A DNA stretch of 62,412 nt, the filler included, from an uncultured Planctomycetales bacterium (GTDB lineage: Bacteria; Omnitrophota; Gorgyraeia; Gygaellales; Profunditerraquicolaceae), in the NCBI GenBank assembly GCA_964487475.1. It is 5 parts of 5 records of this genome, joined end to end, with 100 filler letters (N's around TTAATTAATTAA, not from the genome) between each part and the next. Parts side by side here need not be neighbours in the genome. Positions count along the whole stretch, not along the records: positions 1 to 16,968 come from CAZAPM010000022.1; positions 17,069 to 31,947 come from CAZAPM010000023.1; 3 more parts are not named here. The stretch is one strand, 5' to 3'. Within the stretch, counting starts at the first letter, position 1. Every line of letters starts with the position of its first letter. Positions 1 to 18,000 of this stretch are shown piece after piece. Position numbers: made by a program.

Positions 1-3000
1 GGGACAGGGCGCCGCCGTATCGTCCCGCTGCGCGCGCGACCTTCGCGTTCCAGGTCCTGGTGAACGATATCTTCAGGCATGAAGCCGTCCATCACCGCGG
101 GGTGACCGCGGAAGAGCAGGCCATCTCCGCCAGCATCGATTTCTTCCGGAACGATCCTGACGCGTTCCTGGCGCTGCGCAACTGGGCCCGCCTGTTCGGG
201 GTGAGGCTGCATAAATCCTACCGTGACCAGCTTGATCAGCTGGAGATCGCGCAGAACCGCAAGGATGTCCTTTACCTGGATTCGGTCAGGTTCAGCGCGG
301 AATACGAGCTTTATCATGAGGCCAAGTTCGGTCTGGGTAACGGCCGGATCATGTCCCGTTCGGCGGCTGAGGAGCGGCAGTATGGCTCCACTTCCTGGCC
401 CATGACCTTCGTGAGCGGAGTGTTCAACAAGCCGGAGGCGAACGCCTCCGAGCTGGTCAACGTCACGAACTGGCTGCCGCTGACCTTCCGCACGCAGATC
501 GCCGGGGATTACGGATGCTGGTTCCAGGTGGACCGGGGCCTGCTGCCAGAGTATCGTATCTCCCTGAACATGCGCCATGGGGTGATGGAAAGGGATATGC
601 GCTGGAGGGATGACAAGGGGCGGGAGGTCCGTATCCATATCCGCCGCATCGTCAGCCAGGCGAGGGAAGATATCGCGGCCATCGAATATACGGTCGTCCC
701 GCAGTTCACGGGAAGTATCGAGTTCGAAGCCGGTCTGGATGCCGCCATGTTCAACCGCAGCGAAGCCATGGTGCGCAAGCATCTGGAAGTCATCTCCAAG
801 GGCCAGTCTCAGGGCGCAGGCATATACCTGACCGCCAGGACCGCCGAATCGAAGATCGCCGTCGCCGAAGCCTCCCGGCTGTCGGTGTTTGCGGATGATG
901 TCCCGGTATCCCTGCAGCCGCAGGTGCGCGAGGAGCAGGAGAGGGTTTTCCAGACCGTTTCCCTGCCTGTCAAGGCCGGCCAGGAGATCAGGGTCGAGAA
1001 GGTGGTCAGCATCCTCACTTCGAAGGAGACCGGGATGGACGCTCCGGCTGAAGTCGAGCGCGTAGCCCGGGAACATGCGGCATCCGCGCCTGCCTTCGCC
1101 GCGCTTTATGACGAGCATGCCCTGGCGTGGGAACGCATCTGGGATAATTCCGGCCTGACGGTGGAGGGGGATCCTCAGGTGCAGATGGCGGCCAACTACT
1201 GTACGTTCTCCCTGTTGCAGTCCGCCCGGGAGGGCGAGGAGCTGGCGAATATCGGCGCGAGGACCTTTGGAGAACATTACAAGGGGCATACCTTCTGGGA
1301 CACGGAAATATACATGCTCCCGCTCTTTACCTATACTCAGCCCAAGACCGCGCGTTCCCTGCTCATGTACCGGTATCACTGCTTAAGCGGCGCCCGCGTC
1401 CGGGCCCGCGCAGAAGGTTTCCAAGGCGCGAGGTTCCCCTGGAGAAGCGGGATGGCCCGAAAGAGCGCATCCGGAGCGTATGAAGGAGGGGAGGAGCTTA
1501 CCACACATGCGATCCGCGATTTCGAGATCGGCCCGATCCCCGGCGAGGATCTGACCGGCAGGCTCGAGATCCACGTGAACTGGGATATCGTAGTGGCGGT
1601 GAAGCGTTATTTCGAGGCCACCGGTGATCAGGAGTTCCTGGAGGATTACGGCGCGGAGCTCATGCTGGAGATCGCCCGTCTGGCCGCCAGCCCCGCGTAT
1701 ACGGTGTGGAACGAGTCCCGCAGGTCGTACGATACCCGCAGCCTTGGACCGAACGAATGGGGAGAGAAGGACGCCGGCGCGGAACACATCCCCGGAGTGC
1801 GCAACAACGCGTATAACAACGTCATGACCGCGTTCACCATCTTTACCGCTTTGGAATATCTTCAGAAGATCCCCGCGGCCAAGAGACAGGCTTTGCTGCA
1901 GCGCTGCGGGATGAGCGAAGCGGAGTTCGCGGAGTTCGAATCCCGGGGTCAGGATATCATCCAGAAGATCTATGTGCCGTACGACCCGCAGACCAGACTG
2001 ATCTTTGAATCGGAGTTCTTCCTTGACCGCAAGGCCATAGAAGGGTTCCTCAAGCCGGAGATCCCCTGGTATGACAGTAAGATCCGTAACGAAGTCCTGA
2101 TGCATTTGAACGGCGCTCCGGCCAGCAGTTATCAGGTCGTACGTCAGCCCGACACCATGATGCTTTTCGTGCTGCGGGAGCTCTTCTCCGATGAGTTCAA
2201 CGGCATCTTTGTGCAGCGGTTCGGCCGCAATATCTTCGATGACGAGCATCTGGAGAAAAACCGGCAGTATTATACCCCCAAGACCTCCGGGGAATCCTCC
2301 CTGGTGTTCACCGCGGTGTGTATCTACGAGCTTATGTCCGGGCATCTGCGTAAGGCCATGGAAGCGTTCCTTACCGGCGTGCGTATCCTGGGGGAGACCA
2401 GCCGTCAGAAGGTCGGCCGCCAGGGTATCGCGTCCGCTAACAACGGCGGGGTGTTCTACGCGCTGGTCAGGGGCTTCGCCGGCCTGCAGATCTCGGAGCA
2501 GGGCATCCGCGTCTCTCCGGTACTGCCCGAAGGGTTTACCCGGATCGGTTTCAAAGTGCATTACCGCGGCGTGCGCATCGCCTTCAATATCGCGGCGGAT
2601 CGGATCACCGTCACTCCGGAACTCCTGCCCGGTTCCCGCGGGGAAGCTCCGGAGGCCATCAGTATGTATATGTACGGCCAGCAGGTCGAGGTCAGGGTCG
2701 GCCGGGAGAACGTGTTTCCCGTCGGCGCCAAGAGCATCCGCTTCGCGGAACCGGACCTGGCGGTGCTGGCGACCCGTTTCAATGAATTGCTGGCGACCCT
2801 GAAATCCCTGCACGTTTCGGCGAAGCTCACCGATCAGGCAAAGGTCAGCCTGCGCGAAGGCGTACGGGTCGTCCGTGAGCACCAGGCGAACCAGGCTTCC
2901 TGCCACTGGTATGTGTATGACACGCTGGCGCTGCTCCTGGAATCCCACGTCCTGCCCTGGCTCGGCGAAGGTAAGGCCTTCGATCAGAGGCTGCTGTCGC

Positions 3001-15000: not shown

Positions 15001-18000
15001 ACCATGCGATCGACAAAGGAATCCTGGTCTCCTCAGATTCCTGGGCGCAGTTACACCGCAACTGCGCGGCGGTTTCGGCGCTCTTGTACCGTATCGGCAC
15101 GCTGACCAAGATACTGGTGCTGGAGGATAAGCCCGGAACACAGGGGAGCGCTTTCGGCGAGCTGCTTAAGGTCGCCCGGATGAGCGGGATAGAGGAAGAC
15201 GACGTCGTGCGTGCGGAAAGGGAGAAGGAGATCGTCGGGGTATCCGAACCGGCGGCTTCGGATACAAGCGCGGAGCCGGCGGCTGCGGAAAACCAGATCG
15301 ATACCGCAGAGACCTTATCCCATTTTGGCGCCGCAGTCGCCGCGGCGAGGGAAAAGGAAGGCCGCTTCACGCTTATCTCCGATCTCGAGGGAACGGTGGA
15401 GCTGGCAAGGACCCCTCTTTCCCCGGAAAGCCTGGCTACGGTCATAACCCTGTTGGAAAGCGGGAAGGTCCAGTTCGGGATCCTTTCCGGCGCGGGGATG
15501 GACCGGGTAAAGAAGAATTTTATCGCTCCGTTGCTCGCGGCGATCCCCGCCGAGCGCAGGCACCTGCTGAAGAACATGCTCGTAGGGACCGATAACGGTT
15601 CCCAGGTGTACCGCTATGATCTCGCAAAGGGCCGGTTCGTATGCGCCTTCAGCGTGGATATCGTGGAAGAGGTAAGGCCGGAGAATTATCCCCTGATCGA
15701 AGCGGCGATACGGGACTGCCTGGCCCGCTGCGGGGTGAGGGAGATGGTGCAGCGGATGATGGGATGGACCTTTGACGATGCCGGATGGCAGCGGTACTGT
15801 GATAGGTGCATCGATCCCCGGGAGACCGAGGATAAGCGCATCTGCCAGGTCACCTTCCTGGTCTTGAGCAAGGATGCCAAGGACGAGCAGCGGATATCCT
15901 TCAACCAGCGTGGAGGAAAAGAGATCCGCGAGCCATATGCCGCGTTCATCGCCGAAGCCCTGAAGAAAGCCGGCATGCATCTGTCAGTGAGGGTGACCGG
16001 TCAGAGCTCGATCGACATCACCCTCCCGAATATCGACAAGGCGTTCGGCCTGGCGGTGATGACCGTGCTTTTCGGGTCGCATATCAGCCGGGTGATCTTT
16101 ACCGGGGATGATTTCAAGCCGGGCCGCAACGACGAGCCTACTTTGAAGGTCGCGCGTACCATCGGCAACGTCGGCGCGTTCCTGAATCCGCACTCCTCCC
16201 GGTATTACCGGCCGGGGGTGGCATTTTTCCAGCTTCCCGAGCACGGGCCGGCAGGGTTCAGGGAATTCATCCGGGTGTTGCTGCATGCGCCTTTGGCCCA
16301 GCTGGCGTATCCCTATCCCGGAAAGCTGAGCGATGGTTTCACCAAGCCGGACGCGGCCAAGGGCGAGGCGGAAAGCCCGCTGCGGTATCTCGAAGCGGCG
16401 AAACAGGAGCTTGTGGCCCGGAATGAGGCAGCGATCGAGTATGCCCTGGTGGAGGCGACCGTTTCCGGAAACATCGCGGAGTATAACGAGACGGCGCACA
16501 GGATCGATATCCTGAAGGAATTCTTAGCCCGCGCTCCTCCGTACCGGGCCGGCACGCACGCGACATTCGCCTTCCAGACCGTGGTCAACGATATCTTCAC
16601 CCATGAAGCCGTGCACCACAAGGGTGAACAGAGCGAATCTCCCGCCATCGCCTCCAGCATCGAGATCTTCCGCGCAGACAACAAAGCCTTATTGGCCTTC
16701 CATAACTGGATCAGGGTCTTTGGTATCGAATTGAACGCCGAGTATCGCGCCGCGCTTAACGCGCTCGAGTCGGAAGTGTTCGGGCCGGTCAGCCTTAAGG
16801 GCGGGATCTTCGACGTGGACGGGGTAGTGGCCAAGAGCGCGGATGACGTGCACTGCAAGTGCTGGAAGCAGATGTTCGAGTTGATCGTCAGGGGCACGGA
16901 GGAGATCACGGGCCGCAACGCCGCCGAGACCGCGCAGTTCCGTTCCATCACCGCGGGCAAGCGCAAGGNNNNNNNNNNNNNNNNNNNNNNNNNNNNNNNN
17001 NNNNNNNNNNNNTTAATTAATTAANNNNNNNNNNNNNNNNNNNNNNNNNNNNNNNNNNNNNNNNNNNNAGAGTGCAGGGCGTGGCCCGGCATAAACCCGC
17101 GGATGACGCCGCAACCTATGCCAAGCGTGCCGTAGAACTGGGCAAGTTCGCGCATCAGGTTTCCGATACTTTGGCTGCGGTGCGCATCGATGAGCTCGTA
17201 TGCTGGTTCGCCGGCAGGCCGGAAAACTATTCCCGTTTGCCGGAAAACACCCTTTTGGCGGCGGTATTCGACCTGGACGGGGTCATTACCGTGACCGCGA
17301 CCGTACATATGCGGGCGTGGAAGGAGACTTATGAAGCGGCGCTGCGCAAGCTCGAGAAGACTACGGGGGTCGCCTTCAAGGAGTTTACGCTGCATGAGTA
17401 TGAGGAGCACGTAGACGGCAAGAGCCGCTACCGCGGGACCGAGGCTTTCTTCAGGAGCCGCGGATTCACCGAGGCCCAGCTGGCGTACGGTGATGACAAG
17501 GCCAAGGACACCGAATATGTGTGGGACGGGGCCGACGGGTATTTTGATATCGCGGGTATCGCCAACGCCAAGAATTTAAGGTTCAACGAATTGATCGACA
17601 GCGGGGAAGAGAAAGCGGAAGTGTTCCCCGATGCGGTCGCGCTTTTGCATGCGCTCAAGGCCGCCGGTATCAAGGTCGGTATCGCCTCCGCCTCCAAGAA
17701 TACCCCGAAGATCCTCCAGGGGGTCGGGATGTTCGAGCTTTTCGATGCCGTCGTCTGCGGCGTGGACGTGACCAATACCGCTGCGCAAAGCAAGCCGAGC
17801 CCCTGGCTCTTCATCGAGTGCGCCCGCCGCATGGGGTCCGATCCGCAGCATGCGCTGATGGTCGAGGATGCCGAGGCCGGGGTGCAGGCGGGTGCGGCCG
17901 GCGGATTTGCGCTGGTCGTGGGTATCGCGCGGCACAAGAAGGGTGACGATGCCGAGGCGTTCGTGAAGCGCGTGGCCGGGCTCCAGAAGTTCGCGCACCG

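What a model noticed while it worked through the whole genome (the two positions that open the first line are those of the whole stretch)
3..16967. Giant multi-enzyme proteins are punctuated by repeated minigluzincin (HExxH) protease modules: likely self-processing po [...]
A 145-aa RAP...HExxH...E module with no Pfam match recurs 5 times in the C22 giant and twice in the C23 giant, spaced between unrelated enzyme domains (GH65, amylase, ROK, URO-D, PfkB, HAD), and HExxH is 6-10x enriched across all giants here. The modules are predicted minimal zinc endopeptidases that would cut the giant into its enzyme parts, like a viral polyprotein. New: supplies the missing internal processing enzyme for Omnitrophota giant proteins and a new minigluzincin family.
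Evidence so far: Repeat alignment and HMM, 8 copies; HE..H 15 in 49.7 kaa of six giants vs 2.5 expected from other proteins, 1.5 shuffled; RAPP 10 vs 0 in 541 kaa; no Pfam; AF2 pLDDT 92; top Foldseek hits selecase/projannalysin/proabylysin (prob 0.82-0.99, E 0.04-0.2) and VIA-align top three the same, Z 8.4/8.0/7.5, next 5.5; relatives' hits (3 of 80) all in 5-44 kaa ORFs; 52 homologs, mostly long.
(Added by a program. Inside this text positions count along the whole contig: they may not be those of the stretch shown here. "Call 12" and the like, gene names such as g00115 and contig names such as C1 are that model's own, and its searches are not shown. The text may have been shortened before it was handed on; [...] marks where a part breaks off. 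The agent that wrote the report below was given it as the finding of a first reader that could run no searches.)

Follow-up and report, generated by a model that had tools for sequence, protein, structure and literature searches.

The report
Ribosome-stall checkpoints inside giant enzyme genes
Giant multi-enzyme genes of these likely Omnitrophota bacteria carry repeated small domains predicted to have a zinc-protease fold and, every few thousand residues, a four-residue motif of the kind that stalls ribosomes followed by C-rich, G-poor sequence, which likely form checkpoints where Rho would end transcription if the ribosome is not released.

Summary
The module is real: five copies in C22, two in C23, one degenerate elsewhere, predicted minigluzincin fold (selecase Z 9.0). 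Self-processing is unproven: no cut site found, 28 of 86 homologous rows lost the site (42 keep a full one, 15 by a His/Glu ligand swap), and interspersed zincins have precedent in polyvalent proteins. In 22 giant ORFs from 15 genomes RAPP is the most enriched four-residue word (66 vs 4.7; 0 in 618 kaa of ordinary proteins); RGPP and RAGP follow, matching published ribosome-arrest cores, in 105 unrelated contexts. Six codons past the motif the coding strand turns C-rich and G-poor, at synonymous positions too (about 10 SD), not upstream and not in controls; Rho is present. Best reading: intragenic stall-plus-Rho checkpoints (0.5). No stalling, termination or cleavage was measured, and the genomes were chosen through the module; no independent set was analysed. 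The scan noted stall-like motifs in giant genes before on other DNA (e1-4581802, e1-5264060); I found no note or paper on the downstream C-rich zone.

The parts
3..16967 (+). Fragment of a giant multi-enzyme ORF (5,655 aa, open at both contig ends)
3..248 (+). Module A copy 1, C-terminal part (RAPP codons 6-17, HExxH 78-92)
288..2687 (+). Glycoside hydrolase family 65 (N, catalytic and C domains)
   Evidence: Pfam PF03636, PF03632, PF03633
3342..3722 (+). Module B: second, weakly zincin-like module without HExxH in this copy; RAGP codons at 3501-3512, at the end of the first predicted strand
   Evidence: top four VIA rows are zincins, Z 5.3-6.0; middling
3528..3680 (+). Zone after the RAGP motif: C minus G +0.007 against -0.105 upstream
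4206..4358 (+). Alpha-amylase-like match, below the Pfam cut-off
   Evidence: PF00128, E 8e-4
5985..6425 (+). Module A copy 2 (RAPP 6183-6194, HExxH 6255-6269); zone 6210-6362 C minus G +0.007 against -0.059
6429..6980 (+). ROK-family kinase domain, starting two residues after module copy 2
   Evidence: PF00480
8103..8783 (+). URO-D-like domain
   Evidence: PF01208
8886..9332 (+). Module A copy 3 (HExxH 9159-9173; last Pro of the motif replaced by Leu, 9087-9098)
9393..10079 (+). HAD-like hydrolase
   Evidence: PF08282
11703..12572 (+). PfkB kinase (second of two matched stretches); its RAGP at 12207-12218 has no C-rich zone and is likely native to the enzyme fold
12642..13085 (+). Module A copy 4 (RAPP 12843-12854, HExxH 12915-12929); zone 12870-13022 C minus G +0.020 against -0.026
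16311..16775 (+). Module A copy 5, the folded copy (RAPP 16530-16541, HExxH 16602-16616)
16557..16709 (+). Clearest C-rich, G-poor zone in the window: C minus G +0.137 against -0.131 upstream
21008..21442 (+). Module A in C23 (RAPP 21197-21208); zone 21224-21376 C minus G +0.020 against -0.085
26513..26953 (+). Module A in C23 (RAPP 26711-26722); zone 26738-26890 C minus G +0.078 against -0.065
29546..29968 (+). Divergent HExxH module in C23 (HExxH 29795-29809); relatives carry RGPP 13-24 residues before the HExxH; fold not predicted

Best explanation
The giant genes carry RAPP-type motifs followed by a C-rich, G-poor stretch of coding sequence, and these pairs likely act as intragenic checkpoints: the lead ribosome would pause at the motif, RNA polymerase would run on and expose the C-rich stretch, and Rho would end transcription unless a pull on the nascent chain releases the ribosome in time. 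Shown: the motifs are selected for in giants and against in ordinary proteins of the same genomes; their allowed variants match published arrest cores; the strand composition changes only downstream, starting about six codons past the last Pro codon, also at synonymous positions; Rho, NusG and EF-P are encoded. Inferred: stalling, Rho loading, release by export, membrane insertion or folding, and the purpose (not paying for the rest of a 50-250 kb transcript when the chain is not being handled, and pacing its synthesis). The HExxH modules are small zincin-fold spacer domains whose loops often host the motif; about half of module A homologs keep a full metal site and are likely active endopeptidases, with the giant itself a plausible but unshown substrate.
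For: RAPP ranks first of all four-residue words seen 8 times or more in 22 giant ORFs (522 kaa, 15 of 15 genomes): 66 vs 4.7 expected, 0 vs 7.2 in 1,752 ordinary proteins; RGPP 28 vs 3.4 (rank 9), RAGP 27 vs 7.5 (45), the His-led form 11 vs 1.3 (59), the Ser-second form 13 vs 3.1; Ala-led and Lys-led controls 4 vs 6.8, 1 vs 4.9, 8 vs 4.6, 5 vs 3.5 (full position tables). This is the tolerance pattern of arrest cores in PMC12992588 and PMC10987492. 166 sites fall in 105 flank-homology clusters; homologous sites swap among family members; only 18 lie in module A. The motif sits at different places of the zincin-like fold, after membrane helices and in Pro-rich linkers. C/G ratio around 134 Arg-led sites: 0.83-0.85 upstream, 0.75 at codons +4 to +9, 1.14, 1.35, 1.12, 0.95, back to 0.80 by +130; 134 of 164 sites are more C-skewed downstream than upstream, C exceeds G downstream at 121 and upstream at 34. 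Third-position G against synonymous resampling: 437 vs 605+-16 and 743 vs 972+-21; one site per cluster 268 vs 370+-16 and 465 vs 576+-17; no such drop upstream, after 606 other Pro-Pro pairs, 74 motif-free HExxH sites or 670 random sites. Ranking 13,267 words with no motif named puts RAPP, RGPP, an Asn-led form, RAGP and the Ser-second form on top after one Thr-Pro repeat that is C-rich on both sides; before 643 C-rich peaks the top word is RAPP (20 vs 3.3). Not like gene starts, which are A-rich with C/G 0.84-0.93. Codon choice at the motif is biased (Arg CGC 70 of 121 vs 1,248 of 4,336). Rho in this genome and in 291 of 301 phylum genomes. Proline stalls plus rut sites trigger Rho in E. coli (PMC5021804 abstract).
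Against: Nothing was measured. All relatives were picked through module A, which holds the motif; an independent set was not analysed, and 33 of 134 sites come from one genome. Most native RAPP-like sequences of E. coli and B. subtilis did not arrest efficiently in vitro. In CruR the stalled ribosome shields the rut site, the opposite direction. Low folding is seen only in the first 60 nt after the motif, not further. Only about 40 of 643 lenient C-rich peaks have one of the three main motifs before them. In this 60% GC genome the shift is modest: 15 of 20 sites, and three of the four scored C22 module sites only reach C about equal to G. Gln-led forms show little skew (4 of 7 and 4 of 10). 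Spacing is not periodic (CV 0.99 vs 1.01 random; median gap 1,754 aa; only short gaps are rare, 6 vs 15.8). G-avoidance also removes Shine-Dalgarno-like words and in-frame ATG (14 vs 48 at +14 to +34), which fits a rival without Rho. Whether transcription and translation are coupled in this phylum is unknown.
Confidence: 0.5

Rival explanations
1. Pause without Rho. The motifs pause the ribosome to pace folding, membrane insertion or export; the downstream stretch, left bare during the pause, is G-poor to avoid Shine-Dalgarno-like words, in-frame starts and hairpins that would start truncated giants or block restart.
For: Same motif evidence. In-frame ATG 14 vs 48 and 42 vs 72 downstream while out-of-frame ATG is normal; Shine-Dalgarno-like words 100 vs 141+-11 and 161 vs 237+-12. 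Membrane-helix centres enriched 15-30 residues before (15 vs 4.5) and 4-19 after (12 vs 4.1) 149 sites.
Against: C rises (third position 0.22 to 0.32) while A stays flat, unlike gene starts; avoiding G alone does not predict a C-specific gain or the YC rise from 0.10 to 0.15.
Confidence: 0.25
2. First reader's model (concerns the modules, compatible with the best explanation): active modules cut the giant into multi-enzyme pieces.
For: Minigluzincin-like fold; 42 of 86 rows keep a full ligand set, 15 through a compensating swap; found only inside long frames; enzymes lack internal start signals; precedent proposed for polyvalent proteins, with one processed example.
Against: No cut site identified; 28 of 86 rows lost the site and module B lacks the second His in 8 of 8 aligned copies; only 21 of 301 phylum genomes have module A; several MPTase-bearing polyvalent proteins stay uncut.
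Confidence: 0.3
3. The modules act on other proteins (host or prey surface) or are mostly non-catalytic spacers and docking domains.
For: A 25-row clade of nearly all dead copies persists, some in tandem; many divergent subfamilies; predatory role proposed for the giants.
Against: Invariant site in all seven copies in the window; ligand swap shows selection on metal binding. No host substrate evidence here.
Confidence: 0.4
4. Ribosomal chain splitting (StopGo-like): the chain is released at the motif and translation resumes from the last Pro, making separate proteins from one ORF.
For: Several motifs are followed at once by signal-peptide-like or lipobox-like stretches (read by eye); downstream Met is depleted and no Shine-Dalgarno plus start follows.
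Against: Many motifs lie inside the zincin-like fold, which would be cut in two; no such reaction is known to me in bacteria (recalled); signal-like stretches were not scored against a control.
Confidence: 0.1
5. RAPP is the cut site of the modules (Pro-Pro endopeptidase-like).
For: 49 of 166 motifs lie near a zincin-like HE motif vs 6.6 by chance; in module A the motif is kept in 45 of 58 rows with His-Glu/Asp and 6 of 28 without, though mostly one clade.
Against: Does not explain codon bias or the one-sided synonymous skew; the variants follow ribosome tolerances, including Gly before the last Pro; in module A the motif lies between sheet and active-site helix.
Confidence: 0.1
6. Artefact of repeats, descent or choice of genomes.
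For: Genomes picked through module A; kin and tandem repeats are not independent; one genome gives a quarter of the sites.
Against: Holds for one site per cluster, without that genome for codon bias, for RAGP sites alone (none in module A), and in a ranking with no motif named.
Confidence: 0.07

Closest known systems
RAPP-like arrest peptides (ApdA, ApdP, SecM, RQH family; PMC12992588, PMC10987492)
   Same: Same cores and tolerances; avoided in the ordinary proteome.
   Different: Known ones sit near the C-terminus of small upstream ORFs and control the next gene; here many copies sit in frame inside one ORF of 3,000-82,000 aa.
CruR of Bordetella pertussis (PMC9426467); TnaC-type attenuation by Rho (PMC12360218)
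   Same: A RAPP stall working together with a C>G bubble and Rho.
   Different: There the stalled ribosome shields the rut site and keeps transcription going; here the C-rich zone starts beyond the stall site, so a stall would expose it, and the unit repeats within a gene.
Transcriptional polarity; polyproline stalls plus rut sites without EF-P (PMC5021804); nadD iRAP and topAI intragenic terminators (PMC12360218)
   Same: Ribosome stalling inside a coding sequence unmasks a Rho site.
   Different: Incidental, stress-induced or single sites; not a peptide arrest core paired with a selected C-rich zone many times per gene.
Minigluzincins selecase, abylysin, jannalysin (PDB 4qhf, 4jiu, 4jix)
   Same: Predicted minimal zincin fold, HExxH plus Glu on the next helix.
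   Different: 8-17% identity, no sequence-family match, about 40 extra residues, embedded in giants, with swapped and dead variants.
Zincin-like MPTases of polyvalent proteins (PMC5512222)
   Same: One to five HExxH domains interspersed among unrelated enzymes, proposed to self-process.
   Different: Those are phage and conjugative-element proteins; these are cellular giants of sugar-metabolism enzymes.
Archaeovorin-type Omnitrophota giant proteins (10.1101/2023.11.21.568195; 10.64898/2026.06.07.730766)
   Same: Multi-enzyme giant ORF with sugar kinases, hydrolases, HEAT and TPR repeats; cleavage already proposed.
   Different: Proposed proteases are C39 and S8; the words HExxH, arrest and stall do not occur in the main texts searched.

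Membership tests
Minigluzincins (defining features recalled from Lopez-Pelegrin 2013, not read) | HExxH with a Glu third ligand on the next helix | tested here: met
   Invariant in 6 of 6 full copies; helices 84-104 and 110-123
Minigluzincins | Minimal fold: backing helix, three-stranded sheet, active-site helix, Glu helix | tested here: met
   VIA Z 9.0, rmsd 2.9, 102 aligned to selecase; next unrelated-size row 6.0; Foldseek E 0.007
Minigluzincins | Sequence kinship to the named members or a curated model | tested here: not met
   No Pfam, NCBIfam or PDB-sequence match
Minigluzincins | Small stand-alone protein | tested here: not met
   39 of 39 genome matches in frames over 1,300 aa; 7 of 10 short library hits lie on contigs under 1.2 kb, one more is marked partial, two were not resolved
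Minigluzincins | Zinc-dependent endopeptidase activity | not testable with these tools
   No assay
Polyvalent-protein MPTases | Zincin core interspersed in several copies among unrelated enzymes | tested here: met
   against the description
Polyvalent-protein MPTases | Encoded by a phage or conjugative element | tested here: inconclusive
   Contig holds only the ORF; 8 of 10 homologs looked up are named Omnitrophota proteins, 2 bear no taxon; mobile context not searched
RAPP-like arrest peptides (RQH family) | Core Arg/Gln/His, then Ala/Gly/Ser, then Pro-Pro, or RAGP; Arg not replaced by Ala or Lys | tested here: met
RAPP-like arrest peptides (RQH family) | Avoided in the rest of the proteome | tested here: met
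   0 vs 7.2, 1 vs 5.9, 4 vs 12.5 in 618 kaa
RAPP-like arrest peptides (RQH family) | Near the C-terminus of a small upstream ORF | tested here: not met
   Internal sites in ORFs of 3,000 aa or more
RAPP-like arrest peptides (RQH family) | Measured elongation arrest | not testable with these tools
   No assay; most native motifs tested elsewhere did not arrest
Rho-dependent terminator (rut site) | C>G bubble, rich in YC | tested here: met
   C/G 1.35 and YC 0.150 vs 0.82 and 0.101, pooled over 134 sites; weak at single sites
Rho-dependent terminator (rut site) | Unstructured RNA | tested here: inconclusive
   Less folded than shuffles only in the first 60 nt (+0.37 vs -0.77 kcal/mol); later windows normal
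Rho-dependent terminator (rut site) | Rho and NusG encoded | tested here: met
Rho-dependent terminator (rut site) | Rho-dependent, bicyclomycin-sensitive termination | not testable with these tools
   No assay

The most novel reading that the evidence does not exclude
Omnitrophota make the largest known proteins through a serial quality-control line written into the gene: tens of tension-released ribosome stalls, each armed with a Rho site just beyond the ribosome, let the transcript grow section by section only as the chain is exported or folded, while zincin modules housing the stalls cut finished sections free.
Probability: 0.2. Interest if true: 0.93.

Novelty: new variant of a known kind. 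Interest (0 to 1): 0.8.

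Why it matters
How a bacterium with a 2-Mb genome transcribes and translates ORFs of 50-250 kb, and whether the product stays whole, is open in the papers read here. The most avoided four-residue words in bacteria are the most enriched ones in these giants, and each is followed by a nucleotide signature of Rho sites. That gives exact, short, portable elements to test in E. coli or B. subtilis without culturing the organism, extends arrest peptides from small leaders to repeated intragenic control with reversed geometry, and supplies over 100 natural contexts for arrest-peptide design. 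The module adds an uncatalogued zincin family with a natural His/Glu ligand swap and a candidate processing enzyme.

Tried and rejected
Module A scan of genome contigs found 68 pattern matches, none confirmed. Taxonomy scan used the opposite-strand frame of the rho locus by mistake; result not used. No RNA holder was listed for window 3-10000. ESM Atlas: unnamed clusters at 0.90 and an IrrE-like cluster at 0.88, leads only. Profiles of modules A and B do not align (probability 0.1); their kinship rests on weak fold matches. Internal Shine-Dalgarno plus start after the motif: none above chance. Periodic spacing: rejected. Ser-Ser-Pro linker motif as general cut site: 108 copies but 64 in one genome, 0 in C22 and C23, and no skew. 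A Tyr-Pro motif at the module's start was considered as cut site; the model pairs that stretch as a strand and it shows no skew; untested as substrate. The careful tree did not finish; the quick tree was used. Kizina 2022 is not held. No complex prediction was sent. Giants from 14 further genomes, chosen by the C39 domain, were fetched but not analysed, so independent confirmation is open. Earlier-finding look-ups for the C-rich zone and for the module sequence showed nothing.

Full report
What the window is. Places 1-16968 are contig C22 of a 1.87-Mb, 36-contig genome; the window joins C22, C23, C24, C26 and C29 with N spacers. C22 is one reading frame of 5,655 aa open at both ends, C23 one of 4,959 aa. 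Eight of 10 module homologs looked up are named Omnitrophota proteins, so the phylum is inferred from homologs; my own taxonomy scan failed through a wrong frame. Pfam finds GH65, ROK, URO-D, HAD and PfkB in C22, and HAD, NUDIX, glucosamine-6-phosphate isomerase, HEAT, PRK, aldose epimerase and a PEP-binding domain in C23.

The observation. An HMM of the copies finds five in C22, two in C23 and a degenerate one in C5, and nothing else below E 1 in 7,871 frames. The His, Glu, His and a Glu seven residues on are invariant in six full copies. HExxH counts 15 in six giants against 2.4 from ordinary proteins and 1.7 shuffled; RAPP 10 against 0. A seventh long frame with none of either was dropped by my gene caller. 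There is no Pfam, NCBIfam or PDB-sequence match. AF2 gives pLDDT 89.9; selecase, abylysin and jannalysin lead the fold searches (Foldseek E 0.007; VIA Z 9.0, 8.0, 7.2, then SPRTN 6.0). The family has 52 library members and occurs in 21 of 301 phylum genomes, always in long frames.

Is the module a protease? An iterated profile over the giants and the 52 proteins gave 86 distinct rows (25 bits and 70 residues or more; they include the eight own copies and some near-duplicates). 28 keep HExxH, 27 of them with a third-ligand Glu; 15 changed the second His to Glu and all 15 have His at the third-ligand place, one clade in the quick tree; 15 keep His-Glu or His-Asp in other forms; 28 lost the site, most in one 25-row clade. 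But no cut site emerged, the next enzyme follows within 2-21 residues, and several enzymes have no module between them. A second module type (window 3342-3722) is weakly zincin-like (top four VIA rows zincins, Z 5.3-6.0) and lacks the second His in 8 of 8 aligned copies. Self-cleavage of these giants is already proposed through C39 and S8 domains, and interspersed zincins in polyvalent proteins. I put self-processing by these modules at 0.3.

The motif is a separate signal. RAPP-type words occur before and after the HExxH helix and in linkers. I fetched the DNA around module hits in 14 other genomes and called 22 ORFs of 3,000 aa or more (522 kaa; some, including those of G222, G091 and G207, are cut by my fetch limits) and 1,752 ordinary proteins (618 kaa). 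RAPP is first of all words seen 8 times or more (66 vs 4.7), in 15 of 15 genomes, and absent from ordinary proteins (0 vs 7.2). RGPP (28 vs 3.4), RAGP (27 vs 7.5), His-led and Ser-second forms are enriched; Ala-led and Lys-led controls are not, nor are the ApcA-type and Asp-second forms (6 vs 7.5, 2 vs 2.8). Fujiwara and colleagues report that these cores stall ribosomes, tolerate Gly fully and Ser partly at the second place, need the Arg, resist EF-P and are the most avoided words in bacterial proteomes, with His- and Gln-led natural forms. Only 18 of 66 RAPP are in module A; 166 sites form 105 clusters, and homologous sites exchange family members. 49 of 166 lie near a zincin-like HE motif against 6.6 by chance, and 26 of 100 HExxH sites have one: zincin modules are frequent hosts, not the only ones.

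The DNA after the motif. Around 134 Arg-led sites the C/G ratio is 0.83-0.85 upstream, 0.75 for the five codons right after the motif, then 1.14, 1.35, 1.12 and 0.95, and 0.80 again by 130 codons; YC rises from 0.10 to 0.15. 134 of 164 scorable sites are more C-skewed downstream than upstream. Against resampled synonymous codons, third-position G is 437 vs 605+-16 and 743 vs 972+-21, and stays low with one site per cluster; other Pro-Pro pairs, motif-free HExxH sites and random sites show no such drop. Gene starts look different (A-rich, C/G 0.84-0.93). A ranking of 13,267 words with no motif named recovers the arrest cores at the top, and RAPP leads the words before 643 C-rich peaks, though the three main motifs precede only about 40 of them. 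The Arg codon is CGC in 70 of 121 sites against 29% elsewhere, and CCC is rare at the third place (2 of 107 vs 55 of 598). In-frame ATG and Shine-Dalgarno-like words are also depleted downstream. In the window, six of seven scorable sites follow the trend, clearly at 16530 and 26711, weakly at the others; the exception lies inside PfkB. A one-sided synonymous signal that starts just beyond where a stalled ribosome would end (footprint size recalled) points to the ribosome and the mRNA, not to a protease.

Mechanism. C>G bubbles mark Rho sites; stalling unmasks intragenic sites; proline stalls plus rut sites cut expression about 30-fold without EF-P. Rho is in this genome and 291 of 301 relatives, NusG and EF-P in this genome. 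I therefore read each pair as a checkpoint: pause, exposure, termination unless a pull releases the ribosome. Membrane helices are enriched on both sides of the motif and SecA-like domains are reported in these giants, which offers sources of pull; that step is inference. Confidence 0.5 for the Rho checkpoint, about 0.75 to 0.8 that the motif acts at the ribosome in some way. The module question is separate, so the rival confidences do not sum to one.

Limits. No assay, no RNA data. Genomes were chosen through a module that holds the motif; the independent set was not analysed. Kin and tandem repeats inflate the statistics, and one genome gives 33 of 134 sites. Most native motifs tested in model bacteria did not arrest. 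CruR works in the opposite direction. My gene caller is home-made, so the ordinary-protein set holds some errors.

Literature seen. Passages: 10.1101/2023.11.21.568195 (section 8), 10.64898/2026.06.07.730766 (10, 79), PMC5512222, PMC9426467, PMC12360218, PMC4559962, PMC10066038, PMC10987492 (section 13 in 101). Parts 1-4 of 10 and a word search: PMC12992588. Abstract: PMC5021804. Not seen: Kizina 2022 (83) and Lopez-Pelegrin 2013 (recalled). Searches listed no paper that joins these giants with zincin repeats, arrest motifs or Rho; the four arrest papers listed have 0 occurrences of Omnitrophota. Supplements were not read: those of the two preprints may list zincin-like domains, and the GTDB-wide tables of PMC12992588 may hold Omnitrophota proteins. 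The arrest reading was noted, before I looked at earlier findings.

Verdict. Observation confirmed; interpretation partly supported; the more surprising feature is the repeated arrest-core plus C-rich zone. New variant of a known kind, interest 0.8.

Noticed in passing
window 16790-16968 and 17069-17250: C22 ends in the first residues of a HAD domain and C23 begins with a stretch like the end of its own first HAD domain, so the two contigs may be consecutive pieces of one giant gene.
   Followed up: no
P0011-P0014, P0016, P0018, P0019, G199:C9: A clade of 15 module A homologs with the second His and the third-ligand Glu exchanged (HExxE, later His).
   Followed up: partly
G265:C40 giant, residues about 29300-31000; G061:C5 residue about 24030: Signal-peptide-like and lipobox-like stretches start right after the motif deep inside the ORF; signal peptidase could process these giants from within.
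   Followed up: partly
G061:C5, G299:C5, G189:C8 giants: Ser-Ser-Pro followed by a hydrophobic residue is strongly enriched (108 copies, 64 in one genome); no C/G skew follows it.
   Followed up: partly
22 giant ORFs: An Asn-led variant of the motif (13 vs 3) shows the same downstream skew in 11 of 13 sites; it was not among the arrest forms in the passages read.
   Followed up: partly
motif codons: Arg codon CGC and, in RAGP, Gly codon GGG (19 of 27) are preferred; unexplained.
   Followed up: partly
G291:C1:1-245466: An 81,822-aa open frame, still open at the contig start, with 35 HExxH sites and 33 Arg-led motifs in several repeated zincin-like subfamilies.
   Followed up: partly
window about 23060-24270 (C23 residues 2000-2400): Two further His-Glu or decayed zincin-like stretches between the HEAT repeats and the PRK domain, read by eye.
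   Followed up: no
window 5760-5980: A partial copy of the N-terminal half of module B directly precedes module A copy 2, without the motif.
   Followed up: no
G000:C1:146974-147282: The NusG match lies in an open frame of 281 aa, longer than a usual NusG (size recalled).
   Followed up: no
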